Shown here one piece after another: positions 1 to 5,802 of a stretch of 5,802 nucleotides of DNA (position 1 is its first letter; every line of letters starts with the position of its first letter). The stretch lies in the IMG/VR virus record IMGVR_UViG_2663763413_000005; one strand, written 5' to 3'. The position numbers and the translations under genes were made by a program. The stretch is from a virus. Taxonomy: Duplodnaviria; Heunggongvirae; Uroviricota; Caudoviricetes. The notes beneath the pieces are model-generated. The model worked only from the letters and a program-made list of their open reading frames with translations. It searched no databases and was not told the DNA's origin.

Positions 1-1
1 G

Positions 2-208
2 GCAAATCAGGGAAAACTACAGGGTGTGCTGGTCAGCCTGACCAATCTGACCGGCGTGGCGGGCCCGCTGCTGTTTGCTTTTATTTTCAGTCAGACACAG
101 CAGAGTGCGGACGGTACGGTGTGGCTGATTGGCACGGCACTGTACGGTCTGCTGCTGGCAATCTGTCTGCTGATCAGAAAACCGGCACCGGTGGCGGCCA
201 CCTGCTGA
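2..208 (+). CDS. C-terminal fragment of an integral membrane transporter (possibly MFS-type); 5' end lies outside the window
   Basis: Reading frame is open from base 2 to a TGA at 206-208 (the track ORF 26..208 begins at an internal GTG). Translation is strongly hydrophobic (…[14 protein letters not shown]… and …[18 protein letters not shown]…), consistent with two transmembrane helices followed by a short charged tail. Family assignment is by general resemblance only. Confidence 0.4.
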
Positions 209-302
209 CCGGCGCTATACAGGCAGCGCTGTTGTGCGGTATGGTGGACGGCATTCGTGCTTATCGCCTGCCATGATAAGCCTCAGACACAGAGGAACCG
301 TT

Positions 303-542
303 ATGAAATCACGCGCAGCAGTCGCCTTCGGGCCGGGTTTACCCCTTGAAATTGTTGAAATTGATGTGGCACCGCCGAAGAAAGGTGAAGTGCTGGTGAA
401 AATCAGTCACACCGGGGTATGCCATACCGATGCCTACACGCTTTCCGGTGATGATCCGGAAGGTCTGTTCCCGGTGGTGCTCGACCATGAAGGTGCCGGG
501 GTGGTGGTTGAGGTCGGTGAGGGCGTGACCAGTGTGAAACCT
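303..542 (+). pseudogene. frmA: S-(hydroxymethyl)glutathione dehydrogenase / class III alcohol dehydrogenase, N-terminal ~80 codons only (3'-truncated remnant)
   Basis: ATG at 303 is preceded by AGAGGA (288-293). Translation [80 protein letters not shown] matches the N-terminus of E. coli FrmA/AdhC as I recall it. The match ends at about 542; the frame then runs on to 635 through unrelated Ala/Phe-rich sequence that is the antisense of the stf remnant. The track ORF start at 234 is an upstream alternative start. Confidence 0.7.
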
Positions 543-1000
543 GCGCTGTTAGCTGCGTTCGTTTCTGAGGTTTTCGCCGCGTTCTTCGATGATGCCGCTG
601 CTGTTTCGGATTTCTTTGCCGCCGCTGCGCTCTGAGAGGCGGCTTCAGCGTTGCGTGCCGCTTCTTCCACCATTTCCTCAAAACGACGCAATGCCTCCGG
701 CATGACATCATCTTCCGTCATGGCACCGAGAAAATCATTCAGCGTCCCCGGCTTAGAATCTTCATACACGGTGATGGTCCCGGCATGTGAAGGCGGAAAA
801 CCTTCAACCAGCAGGATAACGCTGTACTGGCCATACTCAACATCCATGCTGTAACGCCCGGCTTCATCCGGATTTTCAGAGGCCACCGTGTTCACCAGTA
901 CCGTGGTGCTGTTACGCTTTGCCTTCAGTTGAATAGTGCAGTTCTGTATTGGTTTTCCCGCACCATCTTTCAGCACACCTGAGATTTTTACTGCTGCCAT
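540..1000 (-). pseudogene. stf: Side tail fibre protein Stf, N-terminal ~150 codons only (3'-truncated); the ORF reads on into antisense frmA-like sequence to a stop at 434
   Basis: ATG at 998-1000 (minus) with GGAG five nt upstream. Translation MAAVKISGVLKDGAGKPIQNCTIQLKAKRNSTTVLVNTVASENPDEAGRYSMDVEYGQYSVILLVEGFPPSHAGTITVYEDSKPGTLNDFLGAMTEDD… matches the N-terminus of lambda Stf (orf401), followed by the Ala/Ser-rich repeat region. Similarity stops around …[12 protein letters not shown] (about 540-555). The remaining 33 codons ([17 protein letters not shown]…) are the reverse complement of the frmA-like gene. Confidence 0.75.
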
Positions 1001-1011
1001 ATCCACTCCAC

Positions 1012-1038
1012 AAAAAAGCCCGCCTGAACCGGCGGGCT
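1012..1038 (-). terminator. Rho-independent terminator downstream of lom (minus strand)
   Basis: Minus-strand reading is AGCCCGCC-GGTTCA-GGCGGGCT followed by TTTTTTG: an 8-bp GC-rich stem (plus 1017-1024 / 1031-1038), 6-nt loop and T-tract (plus 1012-1017), placed between the lom stop (1065) and the stf start (1000). Confidence 0.6.
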
Positions 1039-1064
1039 GTCATAACACTGTGTTACCTGGCTAA

Positions 1065-1664
1065 TCAGAACTTATAACCGACACCCACGATGAAACCGTC
1101 AGTGCGCCAGTCACCACTGCCGGAGCCTTCATAAGCAATATCAATGGCCACGGATTCGGTCGGGTTAAACTGCACGCCAGCTCCCCACGCCAGAGACGTG
1201 TTGCTGTGGCGACCGTCATCACTTCCGGTCAGCACATCGTGCGTTTTCCCCTTGTTGTCAGTTACGCGGAGGTAATCCCCGGAAAAAGTCGAAACACGGC
1301 TGTAAGCCATACCCGCCATCGCATACGCGCTGAACCATTCATTCACGCGCACAGACGGCCCCGCCATCACGCTGAACCAGCGGTTACGCACGGAATCTTT
1401 ATGCCAGCGGGTATCGCTGTAACGGGTCAGCTGACGATTCTTGTATCCTGCATAACTGAATGACGTCACCAGCCCCAGCGTGTCCGTAAATTCATAACGG
1501 TATTTCACGTTAATGCCCTTCAGGTCATCACTGCCTGGCATATCAGTATGGGTCTGAAGATACCCGGCGCTTAGTGTGGACTGATGCTCTGCTGCGCTCG
1601 CTGGCGTACCAGCGGCAACCAGCCAGACTACTGCGGACAGAATAACAGCACATAATTTACGCAT
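1065..1664 (-). CDS. lom: Lom outer-membrane protein (Ail/Lom/OmpX/PagC family 8-stranded beta-barrel), intact
   Basis: 199-aa ORF with ATG at 1662-1664 and GAGAGG Shine-Dalgarno 6-7 nt upstream. Signal-peptide-like N-terminus MRKLCAVILSAVVWLVAAGTPASA, C-terminal …GFIVGVGYKF ending in an aromatic residue as in outer-membrane beta-barrels. Near-identical over most of its length to lambda Lom as I recall it. Confidence 0.92.
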   Translation of the reverse strand: MRKLCAVILSAVVWLVAAGTPASAAEHQSTLSAGYLQTHTDMPGSDDLKGINVKYRYEFTDTLGLVTSFSYAGYKNRQLTRYSDTRWHKDSVRNRWFSVMAGPSVRVNEWFSAYAMAGMAYSRVSTFSGDYLRVTDNKGKTHDVLTGSDDGRHSNTSLAWGAGVQFNPTESVAIDIAYEGSGSGDWRTDGFIVGVGYKF

Positions 1665-1688
1665 AATTACCTCTCGCTTTTCTGCAAT

Positions 1689-1712
1689 AAAAAAGGCGTC
1701 ATTTCTGACGCC
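1689..1712 (-). terminator. Rho-independent terminator between J and lom (tJ-like), minus strand
   Basis: Minus-strand reading is GGCGTCA-GAAA-TGACGCC followed by TTTTTTATTG: a 7-bp stem (plus 1695-1701 / 1706-1712), 4-nt loop and T-tract (plus 1689-1694), lying between the J stop (1732) and the lom start (1664). Confidence 0.7.
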
Positions 1713-2828
1713 CGTATTGGGGTTATAAAATTCAGCTGATACTGATGCCTGCAGTGGCTTTCTTCATCACAACAACCAGCAAATCGCTGATACTTGCTGT
1801 GGGATACCAACCATTTACCCACCATGCTGATACAGAAAACTCCAGTGTCATTACACCACTGCCTGCAGGCATATCAATAACACCCGTGTAAATCAGAGTA
1901 TTATCCAGAGCCGTTCGGTTATAAATTTCAGCCCCGTTTTTCTTCACTATCAGGCGGCATGACGAATAAGTATCGCTATTCTCCCGCTCATGTCTGGCAC
2001 CGCAGAAAGCCACCGCTGGAATAACAATTTGCCGGTCAAACGACTGATCGTCATAAACCCTGACGGTAATAGTCCCTGATGGCCACCGCTCCGGTGCACG
2101 GGAGTCCCGGGGGAAAGCTTTGCCCACTGTTTTAACGAGATCGCCTTCAATCTGGTTCGCGGACAGTTTTCCCAGAACCCGACAGTTCTCGTTAATCGTG
2201 ACATTATTGAGCGTCCCGGAGTTCGCATTCACGTTACCGCTGATATCGGCATTTTTCGCCGTCAGCCGCCCGTCCGGTGTCAGGGAAAATACCGGAGGAT
2301 TGCCGCCACTGGTAATGGTGGGAGCCGTCAGATACTTCAGGAACACTTCGTTCATGAATATCTGGTTGCCCTGCGCCACAAACATCGGCGTTTCATTCCC
2401 GTTTGCCGGGTCAATAAACGCGATACGGTTAGCGGCAACCAGGAACTGGCTCAGTTTGCCTTCCTCCGTATCCTCCATACTAAGGCCAAGCCCCGCGACA
2501 TAATGCCTGCCGTCTTCGGTCTGCTCAATTTTGACGCCCCACATGGCATTCCATTTATCGTTGGCGTCCTTCCACTCTTTCGAAAACTCCTCCAGTTTGC
2601 TGGCGTTATCCTCCGTCAGCTCGACTTTTTCCAGCAGCTCCTTGCCGAGATGGGATTCGGTTATCTGGCCTTTGAAAAAATCCAGGTAACCTTCCGCATC
2701 ATCGCTCGGCTGACCAACAGCCTCCACGAATGCCGATTTGCCAACGGTGTTCACACTGCGGATATAAAAGTAATAATCATGGCCCGGTTTGATATTGATA
2801 CTGGCAGCTATCCAGTACAGCGCCGTAC

Positions 2829-2873
2829 CAAGATAGCGGGCTGTGGTCTCAAGATAGCGGGCTGTGGTCTCAA
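2829..2873. repeat. Perfect 21-bp tandem duplication (unit AGATAGCGGGCTGTGGTCTCA at 2831-2851 and 2852-2872)
   Basis: Read directly from the sequence. In frame within J, duplicating the peptide ETTARYL. Confidence 0.9.
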
Positions 2874-3210
2874 CCTGCCTGATATCGGTAATCCGCTTTT
2901 CCGAGAACCAGAACTCAAACTGTACCGTCGGATCATAAACCGCAAGATGCGGCGTGGCAGTTATCTGAAAATAGCCCGGCGTCAGCTCAATCCGCGACGG
3001 CGCTGCCGGTGCGGCAATCCGGAACGATACCGATGCCGGATCGCCCTGCTGTCCCCACGCATTTACCGCCCGGACCGTCAGCGTGTAACGCCCCAGCGCC
3101 AGTTGCCTGAAGCGGTATGTGGTTTCCGTCGTCCTGGCCGTGCTGACCAGCCGCTCACTGCCGTCATCCGCTGCCACGGTCAGGCGAAGCATAAAGCTCA
3201 CCCCCTTCAC

Positions 3211-3269
3211 CACCTTCGGCGTATCCCAGCGCGCCAGCACCTTCGGCGTATCCCAGCGCGCCAGCACCT
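3211..3269. repeat. Perfect 27-bp tandem duplication (unit ACCTTCGGCGTATCCCAGCGCGCCAGC at 3212-3238 and 3239-3265)
   Basis: Read directly from the sequence. In frame within J, duplicating the peptide LARWDTPKV. Confidence 0.9.
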
Positions 3270-3541
3270 GATACTCCCCGCTGTCTGAGGTGACTTCGGC
3301 AGTCAGGTGCTGCACCGCAGGCGGCGTGACACCATTCACCGTGCCGCTCTGGTCGCCGTCAAAGTGCGCCCCGTTATCCACGATGGCCTCTTTTTCCGGC
3401 ACATGCTGCACGGCGGTGATGGCATACGTGCCGTCGTCGTTCTCACGGATACTCACGCAGCGGAACAGGCGCTGGCGCAGCGTCGGCAGCTTCAGCCCCC
3501 ATACGCTGTATTCAGCAACACCGTCAGGAACACGGCTCACT

Positions 3542-3555
3542 TTTACCTTTACCTT
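3542..3555. repeat. Short 6-bp tandem repeat (TTTACC x2 plus partial), encoding a KVKVKV run in J
   Basis: Period-6 identity over 3542-3555. Protein reads [12 protein letters not shown], where lambda J as recalled has [10 protein letters not shown]. Confidence 0.6.
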
Positions 3556-3652
3556 CACGCCGTCGGTGACGGACTGAACCTCCACGCTGACCGGATTGCC
3601 ACTTCCGTCAACCAGACTTATCAGCGTGGTACCGGAGGATGGCAGCGTGATT

Positions 3653-4225
3653 TCACGGTCGAGCGTCAGCGTCCGGGTCTGGCTGTTCACCGCCAGCCAC
3701 GCGCCCGCCGATGCTGATACCCGCATAGTCATCATCACAGATTTCAATGACATCCCCCGGTACATGGCGAAGCCCTTCCGCACCCACGCTGAAGTCCACG
3801 GTCTGCGTTTCCAGCAGTTCCGTTTTAATCAGCCACAGCCCGGCGCGGTGCGCCTGCCCCCGGCTGGTACAGCCAAAGGCATCCATCTTCGTGACGTTAC
3901 GACCGTAACGGGCAATGGCCTGCGTATCTTCAACAAGCTCTGTCGCCGTCTCCCAGCCGTTGTTCGGGTCAATCCAGTTCACCTCAACGGCATTATGGCG
4001 GTCCTTCAGGGCGCTGAAGCTGTAGCGGAACGGCGCGCCATCATCCGGCATCACCACATTACTGCGGTTATAGGTCCACACCTTATCTGATGGTCGGTCC
4101 TGCACGAACGTCAGCGTCTGCCCGTTCCATACCGGCATACAGCGCATCGCCGAGCAGAAATCACTGAGCACATCCCACGCCTTGCGCTGTGTGGTCAGCC
4201 AGGCATTACAGGTGATGCGCGGCCT
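3653..4225 (-). pseudogene. J: J fragment 2 (middle), in the +1 frame relative to fragment 1
   Basis: Part of track ORF 3653..4330. Translation from PRITCNAWLTTQRKAWDVLSDFCSAMRCMPVWNGQTLTFVQDRPSDK… through …[22 protein letters not shown] matches lambda J, then runs out of frame ([14 protein letters not shown], stop at 3653). Confidence 0.8.
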
Positions 4226-4247
4226 CATTACAGGTGATGCGCGGCTC
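4204..4247. repeat. Near-tandem direct duplication: 20-bp unit CATTACAGGTGATGCGCGGC twice (4204-4223, 4226-4245) separated by CT; net 22-bp insertion
   Basis: Read directly from the sequence. Located inside J and coincides with the first frame break. Confidence 0.9.
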
Positions 4248-5204
4248 CGTGCCACCAAAGCCATCCGGCACCGACTGGTCGCAATTCTGGCCGATGACAT
4301 ACAGCGCCCATTTGTCCACATCCGCCGCACCGAGACGCTTCCCCATGCCGTAGCGCGGATGGGTCAGCATATCCCACAGACACCAGGCCATGTTGTTGCT
4401 GTATGCTGGCTTAAACGTTCCGTCCCAGATACCGCTGTATTGTCGCGTCTGCGGGTTATAGTTCGACGGCACCTGCAGAATGCGCCCGCGAAGATGATAA
4501 TTACGACTCACCTGCTGGCTGCCGAACTGCTCCGAGTCCACCTGTACGCTGACCAGTGCCGTGTTCGGGTAGCACTGTTTCACATCGATGATTTCGGTGT
4601 ATGACGACCAGAGCGTTTTGTTCTGCAGCTGGTCTGTGGTGCTGTCCGGCGTCATCCTGCGCATCCGGATATTAAACGGGCGCGGCGGCAGGTTATCCAC
4701 CACCACCGAGGCCAGATACTGCGAGGTGGTTTTGCCTTTAATGGTGATGTCTTTTTCCGTCACCCAGCCACCGTTACGCTGTATCTGAACCAGCAGGCGG
4801 ACTTCCGACGGATTCCGGTCCCCCTTTGAGGTGGTTTCCACCAGTGCCTGCACACCGAAGGTAAAGCGCAGACGGTCGATGTTTGCAGACGTGATGGTCC
4901 GGGTAATCGGCGTGTCGTACTTCACTTCCGTACCCAGCACCGTCTCGGAGCCGGAGGATTCAAATCCCTCCGGCGGTGTCTGCTCCTGCTCACCTGCCCG
5001 GAACACCACCGTGACACCGGAGATATTGGTATTCCCCTCACTGTCCAGCACCGGCGTACTGTTCAGCAGCACACTTTTTAATCCGTCCACCGGACCTTCA
5101 ATCGGCCCTTCACTGATGGCGTCTATCACGCTCAGCATCTGGGATGATTTCAGGTTGTCCTTCGCTTCGCGCGGGGTATGCCCCTTACTGCTGCCTTTAC
5201 CCAT
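4206..5204 (-). pseudogene. J: J fragment 1 (N-terminal, 332 codons), ending at a premature TAA created by the 22-bp duplication
   Basis: Track ORF 4206..5204. Translation matches the lambda J N-terminus up to …GGTEPRITCN, then reads EAAHHL and stops. Confidence 0.85.
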
Positions 5205-5226
5205 TCCTCACGCTCCAGAAACGACA

Positions 5227-5246
5227 AAACCGCCCTGAGGCGGTTT
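5227..5246 (-). other. Inverted repeat / hairpin in the I-J intergenic region (possible weak terminator or RNA structure)
   Basis: Plus strand AAACCGCC-CTGA-GGCGGTTT (8-bp stem, 4-nt loop). On the minus strand it is followed by TTTTGTCGTTTCT, which is only moderately U-rich, then the J Shine-Dalgarno sequence. Confidence 0.3.
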
Positions 5247-5264
5247 CACACAAAACATTCTGCA

Positions 5265-5802
5265 TCAACGACCAATCACCACAACCTGACCACCATCTCC
5301 TTCATCTGCCGTGCTGATCTCCTGCGAAATCACCCGTGACCCCACGCGCATTTCACCGTACAGAACCGGCAGAACATTGCCCTGGGCAACCATGTTATCC
5401 AGTGAGGAGAAATAGGTGTTCTGTTTGCCGTTATCCGTTGTCTGTGTACGGGGAGTTCTGGCTTTCGGTGCCAGCATCTGCGCCACACCACCGAGCACCA
5501 TACTGGCCCCCGCACCATACATTCCTGTAATTGCGGCAGCCCCCAACCAACCTGCAGGGTTCCACCATGCCACCGCAATCAGCGCCGCCCCCAGCACACT
5601 GCCTGAAAAAGACCGCCACTTTTGGCTCCCGCCAGACGCGGCACAATGTGGATCACGGCACCATTTGCCAGCGGTTCATTAAGACGGGCGGATAATTCAG
5701 TTTCACCTGCATCACGCCCGGCAATACGTACCTGATACCAGCCGTCGCTCAGTTTCTGACGAAACGCCGGAAGCTGTGTGGTCAGCGCCCGGACTGCTTC
5801 GG
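5265..5802 (-). pseudogene. I: Tail assembly protein I, 5' end outside the window, with a frame break near 5598-5606
   Basis: From the window end, one minus-strand frame reads EAVRALTTQLPAFRQKLSDGWYQVRIAGRDAGETELSARLNEPLANGAVIHIVPRLAGAKSGGLFQ and then hits TGA within a few codons. The I-like sequence continues in a different frame as VLGAALIAVAWWNPAGWLGAAAITGMYGAGASMVLGGVAQMLAPKARTPR…VVIGR (track ORF 5265..5597). Both halves match lambda I as recalled. Confidence 0.8.

What the first reader, a model, noticed from the sequence alone, without database searches (positions are those of the whole stretch)
5590..5612. Frame break in tail assembly gene I
I-like translation runs uninterrupted from the window edge to …PRLAGAKSGGLFQ and then hits TGA within a few codons. 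The I-like C-terminus (VLGAALIAVAWWNPAGW…) continues in a different frame, so there is a net +2 or -1 indel around CAGGCAGTG. With J also disrupted, the prophage is unlikely to make functional tails.
Basis: partly seen in the sequence, partly recalled or inferred. Interest (0 to 1): 0.5.

Follow-up and report, generated by a model that had tools for sequence, protein, structure and literature searches.

The report
Two-base insertion, probably assembly error
The break in the phage tail gene I is really in this sequence and is caused by two extra bases, but they most likely come from a poor-quality draft assembly rather than from a decayed or unusual gene.

Summary
On the minus strand, gene I reads …PRLAGAKSGGLFQAV, then CWGRR and TGA (5581-5579). 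The rest of I (VLGAALIAVAWW…VVVIGR*) continues in the -1 frame. The cause is a 2-nt insertion, AG on the coding strand (CT at window 5599-5600). The closest complete genomes read CAGGCTGTGCTG in one frame.

It is very unlikely to be biology. The window is the whole 5802-nt contig AOQJ01000313.1 of draft assembly GCA_000397385.1. Over 5.26 kb it differs from the E. coli UPEC132 prophage by six insertions, no deletion and one substitution. Four of the six are tandem duplications of 6-27 nt, one of them inexact.

Two assemblies with neighbouring accessions (AOQN, AOQL) carry the same prophage. Each has a different +2 lesion within the same ~14 nt of I, and the same insertion-only damage elsewhere, including a chromosomal sit gene. 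That makes 17 insertions and 0 deletions in 45 kb.

The 2-nt insertion is absent from every complete E. coli genome that matched and from three large contig collections. There is no slippery heptamer and no sign of recoding.

Best reading: an assembly or consensus artefact at a short polymorphic stretch between conserved flanks. "The prophage cannot make tails" is not established. Interest is low.

The parts
5599..5600 (-). The 2-nt insertion (AG on the coding strand, CT on the + strand) that shifts the frame of gene I. Placement is ambiguous by a base or two. It can also be read as GCT->GCA plus an extra TG.
   Evidence: Alignment with UPEC132 and phage 606R9; global difference list.
5579..5802 (-). 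N-terminal part of tail tip assembly gene I (PF06805 domain). It is cut by the contig end and runs into five wrong residues (CWGRR) and TGA at 5581-5579. The annotated GTG start lies 13 nt beyond the window. The lambda-like ATG lies about 112 nt beyond it.
   Evidence: Translation; Pfam PF06805, E=5e-13; upstream frame in the relative; gene call of 73 aa in the public record.
5265..5597 (-). C-terminal part of I in the -1 frame: two hydrophobic helices, the plug and the beta-strand region. It is listed as a 110-aa ORF from GTG 5597, with the stop at 5267-5265.
   Evidence: ORF list; translation. The intact relative matches lambda gpI chains of PDB 8iyk, 8iyl, 8k35 and 8xcg at E=1e-85, and the resolved C-terminal 90 aa of 9e7m at E=2e-46.
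5227..5246 (-). 8-bp GC-rich hairpin (AAACCGCC-TCAG-GGCGGTTT) followed by a T-rich stretch, in the I-J spacer. It is identical in the relatives.
   Evidence: Read directly from the sequence and conserved in the alignment. A 'terminator' is annotated under the match in phage Ayreon. It was not flagged by the simple terminator scan.
1732..5204 (-). Tail tip gene J split into three reading frames (ORFs 5204-4206, 4330-3653, 3783-1732) by five insertions. They are a 22-nt inexact duplication at 4204-4225, a 1-nt C at 3697, and exact tandem duplications of 6 nt at 3542-3547, 27 nt at 3211-3237 and 21 nt at 2829-2849.
   Evidence: ORF list; difference list against UPEC132, where J is one 3396-nt gene; Pfam families of the fragments.
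1065..1664 (-). lom (Ail/Lom outer-membrane protein), intact and identical to UPEC132.
542..1006 (-). 5' part of the side tail fibre gene (stf), cut off at the junction 541/542.
   Evidence: In contigs AOQN and AOQL the gene is a full 799-aa ORF.
1..541 (+). 3' end of tet(D) (to 208) and the first ~80 codons of a class III alcohol dehydrogenase gene (303-541). This is a plasmid or transposon resistance segment joined abruptly to the prophage, with no insertion sequence at the joint.
   Evidence: 99.8% identity to tet(D) regions of many plasmids; reference annotation; junction alignment; the junction 31-mer is absent from genome contigs.

Best explanation
The frame break is a 2-nt insertion present in the deposited contig. 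It most likely arose when the draft genome was sequenced or assembled, and the underlying gene I is probably intact. The window is an entire small contig (AOQJ01000313.1) of draft assembly GCA_000397385.1, and the whole contig carries a non-biological error signature. It shows insertions only, most of them tandem duplications of 6-27 nt, and one end is probably chimeric. The spot hit in I is a 13-nt polymorphic stretch between flanks that are conserved among lambdoid I genes. Reads from co-resident prophages would form a bubble or a mixed consensus at such a place. This last step is inferred, not shown.
For: (1) Source: L012 is exactly the reverse complement of the window and is the complete 5802-nt contig of GCA_000397385.1. 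(2) Against the UPEC132 prophage, window 542-5802 has 6 insertions, 0 deletions and 1 synonymous substitution. Three insertions are exact tandem duplications and one is an inexact duplication. (3) Assemblies AOQN (GCA_000397465.1) and AOQL (GCA_000397425.1) carry the same prophage on 38-kb and 32-kb contigs. Each has a different net +2 lesion within the same ~14 nt of I: T->GAG in one, and +G with A->TC in the other. (4) Their other differences from UPEC132 are again insertions only. AOQN has 2 in 20.3 kb. AOQL has 9 in 19.9 kb, including 27- and 28-nt tandem duplications, a garbled 48-nt one, and a 27-nt duplication in a chromosomal sit gene. AOQL also has 7 A->C substitutions. The total is 17 insertions and 0 deletions, binomial p = 8e-6 if deletions were merely as common as insertions. 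About one insertion per kb could not be sustained across a viable genome (inference). (5) J is intact in AOQN (1131 aa). It is broken at other positions in AOQL, one of them 22 nt from a window lesion. The lesions are therefore not inherited. (6) The 2-nt insertion is absent from all 4264 matching records of complete E. coli genomes, where the best match is 99.5%. The exact 30-mer is absent from genome contigs, viral contigs and metagenome contigs, while the wild-type 28-mer is found in 8 viral contigs. (7) 102 viral contigs share both flanks. In the 100 contigs tabulated, all but one have the in-frame 13-nt spacing, with about 15 different middles; the exception is +3. GGCAGTG in the window lesion and GGCGGTG in the AOQL lesion are words that occur in those other alleles.
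Against: No reads were available, so the insertion has not been shown to be absent from the organism. The sequencing platform and assembler of these assemblies are unknown to me, so the exact error mechanism is inferred. Random errors would not hit the same 14 nt in three assemblies, so a site-specific cause is needed. The mixed-allele explanation is only partly supported, because the AOQN lesion GAG does not look like a hybrid of known alleles. That AOQJ, AOQL and AOQN belong to one project is inferred only from their neighbouring accession numbers and the shared prophage.
Confidence: 0.8

Rival explanations
1. The mutation is genuine. A real 2-bp insertion inactivated gene I in a decaying prophage, and J was inactivated as well. 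The product would be a truncated N-terminal domain lacking the C-terminal part that sits in the tail tip, so no functional tails are made.
For: The lesion is in the deposited sequence. Defective prophages are common in E. coli (general knowledge). J in the same contig is also broken. The break separates the PF06805 domain from the part of gpI that plugs the tail tip in the lambda structures (PMC11101478).
Against: Six insertions against one substitution and no deletion, over 5.26 kb otherwise identical to an intact prophage, is not a natural mutation spectrum. The two related assemblies have different lesions at the same site and different lesions in J. The same kind of lesion is found in a chromosomal sit gene. 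The allele is unique among thousands of genomes.
Confidence: 0.14
2. The site is a real hypermutable or selected hotspot. The boundary between the two halves of gpI would have been hit independently in three related isolates, each time by a net +2 change, perhaps to switch tail production off.
For: Three assemblies carry three different +2 lesions within ~14 nt. In AOQN this is the only difference from UPEC132 within a 6.3-kb stretch (L014) around the gene.
Against: There is no repeat tract that could drive such variation; the longest runs are T5 and G5. The same assemblies carry similar insertions scattered through head, tail and chromosomal genes. No complete genome matches the region better than 99.5%, so none carries the window's insertion, and among 100 tabulated viral contigs only one departs from the 13-nt spacing, by an in-frame +3. 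Agreement on +2 in three cases is weak evidence, about 1 in 4 by chance given that each is a frameshift.
Confidence: 0.04
3. The gene is still expressed. Either a programmed -1 ribosomal frameshift restores full-length I, or the two halves are made as separate working proteins with re-initiation at GTG 5597.
For: A -1 shift anywhere between 5677 and 5582 would restore the protein, because the -1 frame is open there. A GTG lies right at the break and the two ORFs overlap by 19 nt. Lambda-type tail operons do use a -1 frameshift elsewhere, at G/GT (established knowledge).
Against: No X_XXY_YYZ heptamer occurs in any phase and there is no Rfam match. The flanks are identical to relatives that need no shift. 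The two-frame arrangement is not conserved in any relative. There is no clear ribosome-binding site before GTG 5597, read from the sequence.
Confidence: 0.02

Closest known systems
Bacteriophage lambda tail tip assembly protein I (gpI; PDB 8IYK, 8IYL, 8K35, 8XCG, 9E7M)
   Same: The intact relative of this gene aligns end to end with lambda gpI residues 34-223 (E=1e-85) and has the PF06805 N-terminal domain. The gene order K-I-J-lom-stf is also the same. In lambda, three gpI copies sit inside the tip. Residues from 101 onward (helices H1 and H2, plug 159-175, beta-strands) are resolved, and the plug blocks the channel until LamB binding (PMC11101478).
   Different: In the window the gene is split after the residue equivalent to lambda V106 (Q-A-V kept, then out of frame), exactly where the unresolved N-domain ends and H1 begins. 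The hydrophobic linker is 8 residues shorter than in lambda.
Programmed -1 frameshift of the lambda tail assembly chaperone genes G/GT
   Same: It lies in the same operon, and a -1 shift would be the change needed to restore the frame.
   Different: G/GT has a conserved slippery heptamer and a two-frame arrangement conserved across phages (established knowledge). Here there is no heptamer, and every relative examined outside the four assemblies is in one frame.
Frame breaks created by sequencing or assembly errors in draft genomes
   Same: Lesions are private to single assemblies and differ between assemblies that carry the same prophage. They are biased to one type and spread over essential and non-essential genes alike. 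A fourth assembly (CATKVN01, GCA_949813115.1) also has I broken at the same T5 run, by one of seven single-base homopolymer deletions in 6.3 kb.
   Different: The error type here, tandem duplications of 6-48 nt and small non-homopolymer insertions, is not the common homopolymer type. I could not identify the platform or assembler.
Pseudogenes of cryptic lambdoid prophages in E. coli
   Same: The gene is a tail gene with a frameshift in a prophage.
   Different: Natural decay gives mostly substitutions and deletions, and lesions are shared by descent. Here the lesions are insertions only and differ between assemblies carrying the same prophage.

Membership tests
Lambda gpI-type tail tip assembly protein | N-terminal Lambda_tail_I domain (PF06805) | tested here: met
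   The window N-fragment scores 49.7 bits against a cut-off of 23.8, E=5e-13. The intact relative scores 53.6 bits.
Lambda gpI-type tail tip assembly protein | C-terminal region homologous to the gpI part resolved inside the tail tip | tested here: met
   The intact relative matches 8iyk chain I at E=1e-85 over residues 1-182, and the 9e7m C-terminal fragment at E=2e-46. The window's C-terminal ORF has the same DNA sequence as the relative.
Lambda gpI-type tail tip assembly protein | Position between the K (NlpC/P60 peptidase) and J genes of a lambdoid tail operon | tested here: met
   J follows I in the window. K-I-J order is seen in UPEC132 and in the AOQN and AOQL contigs.
Lambda gpI-type tail tip assembly protein | One continuous reading frame joining both halves | tested here: not met
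   A +2 insertion at 5599-5600 leads to a stop at 5581-5579.
Programmed -1 ribosomal frameshift site | Slippery heptamer X_XXY_YYZ in the zero frame within the overlap | tested here: not met
   None in any phase between 5800 and 5579.
Programmed -1 ribosomal frameshift site | Two-frame arrangement conserved in relatives | tested here: not met
   99 of the 100 viral contigs tabulated have the in-frame 13-nt spacing, and one has +3. The complete E. coli genomes at 99.5% identity lack the insertion.
Programmed -1 ribosomal frameshift site | Stimulatory downstream RNA structure | tested here: inconclusive
   The 105 nt from the site fold to -44.8 kcal/mol. No shuffle control was run, and the same sequence is present in relatives that need no shift.
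Prophage pseudogene formed by natural decay | Lesion shared by descent among close relatives carrying the same prophage | tested here: not met
   AOQJ, AOQN and AOQL have three different lesions in I, and J lesions that differ or are absent.
Prophage pseudogene formed by natural decay | Mutation spectrum with substitutions outnumbering indels and including deletions | tested here: not met
   Window: 6 insertions, 0 deletions, 1 substitution. Three assemblies together: 17 insertions, 0 deletions.
Sequencing or assembly artefact | Reads do not support the assembled bases | not testable with these tools
   No read data are accessible. Only indirect evidence is available.

The most novel reading that the evidence does not exclude
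The boundary between the N-terminal domain and the first hydrophobic helix of gpI is a true mutational hotspot. It would have been hit independently by three different +2 changes in three related isolates, acting as an on/off switch for tail production or yielding a working two-piece gpI.
Probability: 0.03. Interest if true: 0.45.

Novelty: not a real feature. Interest (0 to 1): 0.06.

Why it matters
It matters mainly as a caution. Contigs of GCA_000397385.1, GCA_000397425.1 and GCA_000397465.1 carry insertion-type errors at up to about one per kb. These errors create false pseudogenes, including in the resistance-gene and prophage context of this window. Frame breaks, duplications and novel junctions scored in these assemblies should not be read as biology without read support. 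If the break were real, it would only add one more defective lambdoid prophage, which is ordinary.

Tried and rejected
1. Programmed frameshifting or recoding was rejected: there is no slippery heptamer, no long homopolymer and no Rfam match, and relatives are in one frame.
2. A search for the same allele elsewhere found nothing. The exact 30-mer was absent from genome, viral and metagenome contig collections, and the best complete-genome match was 99.5%.
3. A search for the tet(D)/stf junction 31-mer in genome contigs found nothing.
4. Literature searches for the WGS and assembly accessions found nothing relevant. The strain name, sequencing platform and assembler therefore remain unknown to me.
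5. The cluster look-up of the two window-specific ORFs gave no name or accession for them.
6. The idea that the window had been altered after deposit was rejected, because the public contig is identical to the window.
7. The simple terminator scan did not flag the I-J hairpin.
8. I did not test whether these isolates carry a second lambdoid prophage with another I allele, because their other contigs cannot be searched with these tools.

Full report
**What is in the window.** Read on the minus strand, the window carries the distal end of a lambdoid tail operon.
- Gene I runs from 5802 to 5265. Its annotated start lies 13 nt beyond the window edge.
- A short spacer with a hairpin follows.
- J runs from 5204 to 1732, lom from 1664 to 1065, and the 5' part of the side tail fibre gene stf from 1006 to 542.
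- Bases 1-541 are unrelated to the phage. They hold the 3' end of tet(D) and the first ~80 codons of a class III alcohol dehydrogenase gene, 99.8% identical to tet(D) regions of many plasmids.

**Check of the observation.** The frame entering from the window edge reads EAVRAL…IVPRLAGAKSGGLFQAVCWGRR and stops at TGA 5581-5579. The frame one base back reads …VLGAALIAVAWWNPAGW…GGQVVVIGR*, ending at 5265. Alignment with the closest relatives shows one cause. The relatives are the E. coli UPEC132 chromosome and phage vB_EcoS-606R9. The window has CAGGC[AG]TGTGCTG where they have CAGGCTGTGCTG. On the + strand the extra bases are CT at 5599-5600. The finding's coordinates and its guess of a net +2 are right. 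Residues Q-A-V are preserved and the frame is lost from the next codon.

**What the gene is.** The intact relative (182 aa as annotated) matches lambda gpI over its whole length, E=1e-85 to chains of PDB 8iyk, 8iyl, 8k35 and 8xcg. It carries the PF06805 domain at its N-terminus. The Pfam match starts at profile position 26. The upstream frame in UPEC132 reads MAATHTLPLASPGMARICLYGDLQRFGRRIDLRVKTGAEA…. From these two points I infer that the true start is an ATG 33 codons upstream of the annotated GTG, as in lambda. In the lambda tail structures, three gpI copies sit inside the tip. The N-terminal domain is not resolved. Residues from 101 on form two hydrophobic helices, a plug (159-175) that closes the channel, and beta-strands threaded through gpJ (PMC11101478). 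The break in the window falls at the equivalent of lambda residues 104-106, on the boundary between the N-domain and the first helix. If it were real, it would remove everything that is built into the tip.

**Where the window comes from.** An exact look-up of the window-specific J fragment returned a single record: contig AOQJ01000313.1 of NCBI assembly GCA_000397385.1. That contig is 5802 nt long and identical to the window. The window is therefore an entire small contig of a draft assembly.

**The pattern of differences is not biological.** Over window 542-5802 the only differences from the UPEC132 prophage are six insertions and one synonymous substitution. There is no deletion.
- Three insertions are exact tandem duplications of 21, 27 and 6 nt.
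- One is a 22-nt inexact duplication.
- One is a single C next to a C.
- One is the 2-nt insertion in I.

A prophage that has diverged by one substitution in 5.2 kb should not have gained six insertions.

**Related assemblies.** The 110-aa C-terminal I ORF is also called in AOQN01000031.1 (GCA_000397465.1, 38 kb) and AOQL01000047.1 (GCA_000397425.1, 32 kb). Their accession numbers neighbour that of the window's assembly. It is also called in CATKVN010000001.1 (GCA_949813115.1). All four carry the same prophage, but each has a different lesion within the same ~14 nt of I.

| Assembly | Lesion in I | Net change |
|---|---|---|
| AOQJ (window) | CAGGC[AG]TG | +2 |
| AOQN | GGCGG[T->GAG]C | +2 |
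| AOQL | GGCGGT[+G]CTTTTTC[A->TC]GGC | +2 |
| CATKVN | T5->T4 | -1 |

The CATKVN lesion is one of seven single-base deletions in 6.3 kb, nearly all in homopolymer runs. That is ordinary noise and unrelated to the other three.

Differences from UPEC132 over the longer contigs:

| Assembly | Length compared | Insertions | Deletions | Substitutions |
|---|---|---|---|---|
| AOQJ (window) | 5.26 kb | 6 | 0 | 1 |
| AOQN | 20.3 kb | 2 | 0 | 6 |
| AOQL | 19.9 kb | 9 | 0 | 11 (7 are A->C) |

The AOQL insertions include 27- and 28-nt tandem duplications, a garbled 48-nt one, and a 27-nt duplication inside a chromosomal sit transporter gene. Together this makes 17 insertions and no deletion, p = 8e-6 even if deletions were only as frequent as insertions. 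J is intact in AOQN (1131 aa). In AOQL it is broken at other positions, one of them only 22 nt from a window lesion. The lesions are private to each assembly, they cluster at certain sites, and they are not confined to the prophage.

**Rarity of the allele.** None of the 4264 matching records of complete E. coli genomes has the insertion. The best matches are 99.5% identical, with 603 query bases spanning 601 bases of the record. The exact 30-mer across the insertion is absent from genome contigs, viral contigs and metagenome contigs. The wild-type 28-mer, used as a control, is present in 8 viral contigs.

**Why this spot.** A gapped pattern with the two flanks found 102 viral contigs. In the 100 contigs tabulated, 99 have the in-frame 13-nt spacing, with about 15 different 13-nt middles. 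The exception has +3. The site is therefore a short polymorphic stretch between conserved flanks. E. coli genomes that carry this gene have a median of two copies and up to seven. Reads from co-resident prophages would then share both flanks and differ in the middle, which is a classic source of consensus or graph errors. The window lesion contains GGCAGTG and the AOQL lesion contains GGCGGTG, and both words occur in the other alleles. This mechanism is inferred. The AOQN lesion does not fit it neatly, and a sequence-specific read error is an alternative.

**Recoding.** A -1 shift between 5677 and 5582 would restore the protein. However, there is no X_XXY_YYZ heptamer in any phase, no run longer than five bases and no Rfam match. 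The flanks are identical to relatives that need no shift. I reject programmed frameshifting. Separate expression of the two halves from GTG 5597 cannot be excluded, but nothing supports it.

**The contig's other end.** The joint at 541/542 falls inside the dehydrogenase gene and inside stf, with no insertion sequence and at most 2-4 nt of shared sequence. In AOQN and AOQL, stf is a full 799-aa gene followed by further tail fibre genes and then the ABC-transporter genes that correspond to sitD and sitC in UPEC132, with no tet(D). The junction 31-mer is absent from genome contigs. A chimeric contig is the simplest reading. A real rearrangement in this isolate is not excluded.

**Verdict.** The most likely explanation is a sequencing or assembly artefact in a poor draft contig (0.8). 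A genuine inactivating mutation is the main rival (0.14). A real hotspot (0.04) and recoding or split expression (0.02) are remote. The statement that the prophage cannot make tails is not established. The nearly identical prophages in UPEC132 and AOQN have intact J, and UPEC132 and 11 other listed complete genomes have an intact I. Interest is low.

Noticed in passing
window 1-541 and the junction at 541/542: The 3' end of tet(D) and a truncated class III alcohol dehydrogenase gene are joined directly to the middle of the prophage stf gene, with no IS element at the joint. AOQN and AOQL have an intact stf followed by ABC-transporter genes (sitD and sitC in UPEC132) instead. The contig is probably chimeric.
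   Followed up: partly
window 2829-2849, 3211-3237, 3542-3547, 3697, 4204-4225: Five insertions in J relative to an otherwise identical J in UPEC132. Three are exact tandem duplications (21, 27 and 6 nt), flanked by 2-5 nt that repeat the start of the unit. One is a 20-nt duplication with a CT filler, and one is a single C.
   Followed up: yes
L113 (AOQL01000047.1) 12247-12274, against window 2829-2849: A 28-nt tandem duplication in J of AOQL lies 22 nt from the window's 21-nt duplication. This is a second place where two assemblies carry different lesions side by side.
   Followed up: partly
L113 19352-19378 and 18602-18606: A 27-nt tandem duplication and small insertions lie in the chromosomal sit transporter region next to the prophage. 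The insertion-type damage is therefore not limited to phage genes.
   Followed up: partly
L113, substitutions at 3500, 5261, 6044, 9552, 11041, 11044, 14815; window 5690: Seven of the eleven substitutions in AOQL, and the only substitution in the window, are A->C on the coding strand relative to UPEC132. This bias looks like an error profile.
   Followed up: no
L013/L111 (CATKVN010000001.1, GCA_949813115.1): The same prophage lies on a 5.3-Mb contig with seven single-base deletions in 6.3 kb, nearly all in homopolymer runs. They break L, K, I and J, which looks like uncorrected long-read noise.
   Followed up: partly
window 5227-5246 (minus strand): A conserved 8-bp GC-rich hairpin followed by a T-rich stretch lies between I and J. 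A 'terminator' is annotated under the match in phage Ayreon. The simple scan here did not flag it.
   Followed up: no
L001 6614-6713 (UPEC132), upstream of the annotated I start: The annotated GTG start (182 aa) probably truncates I. The frame is open for 33 more codons from an ATG (MAATHTLPLASPGMARICLYGDLQRFGRRIDLR), and the Pfam domain match starts at profile position 26.
   Followed up: partly
L114 4910-7309 (UPEC132), against L112 14523-16922: The side tail fibre gene is annotated as three pieces in UPEC132, one of them a pseudogene. In AOQN and AOQL it is a single 799-aa ORF. The two differ there only by a few substitutions.
   Followed up: no
L010 (IMGVR_UViG_2657245469_000005), about 1147-1177: One viral contig has a 16-nt rather than 13-nt middle at the same I site, an in-frame +3 with an extra GGG. 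It is the only length variant among the viral contigs tabulated.
   Followed up: no
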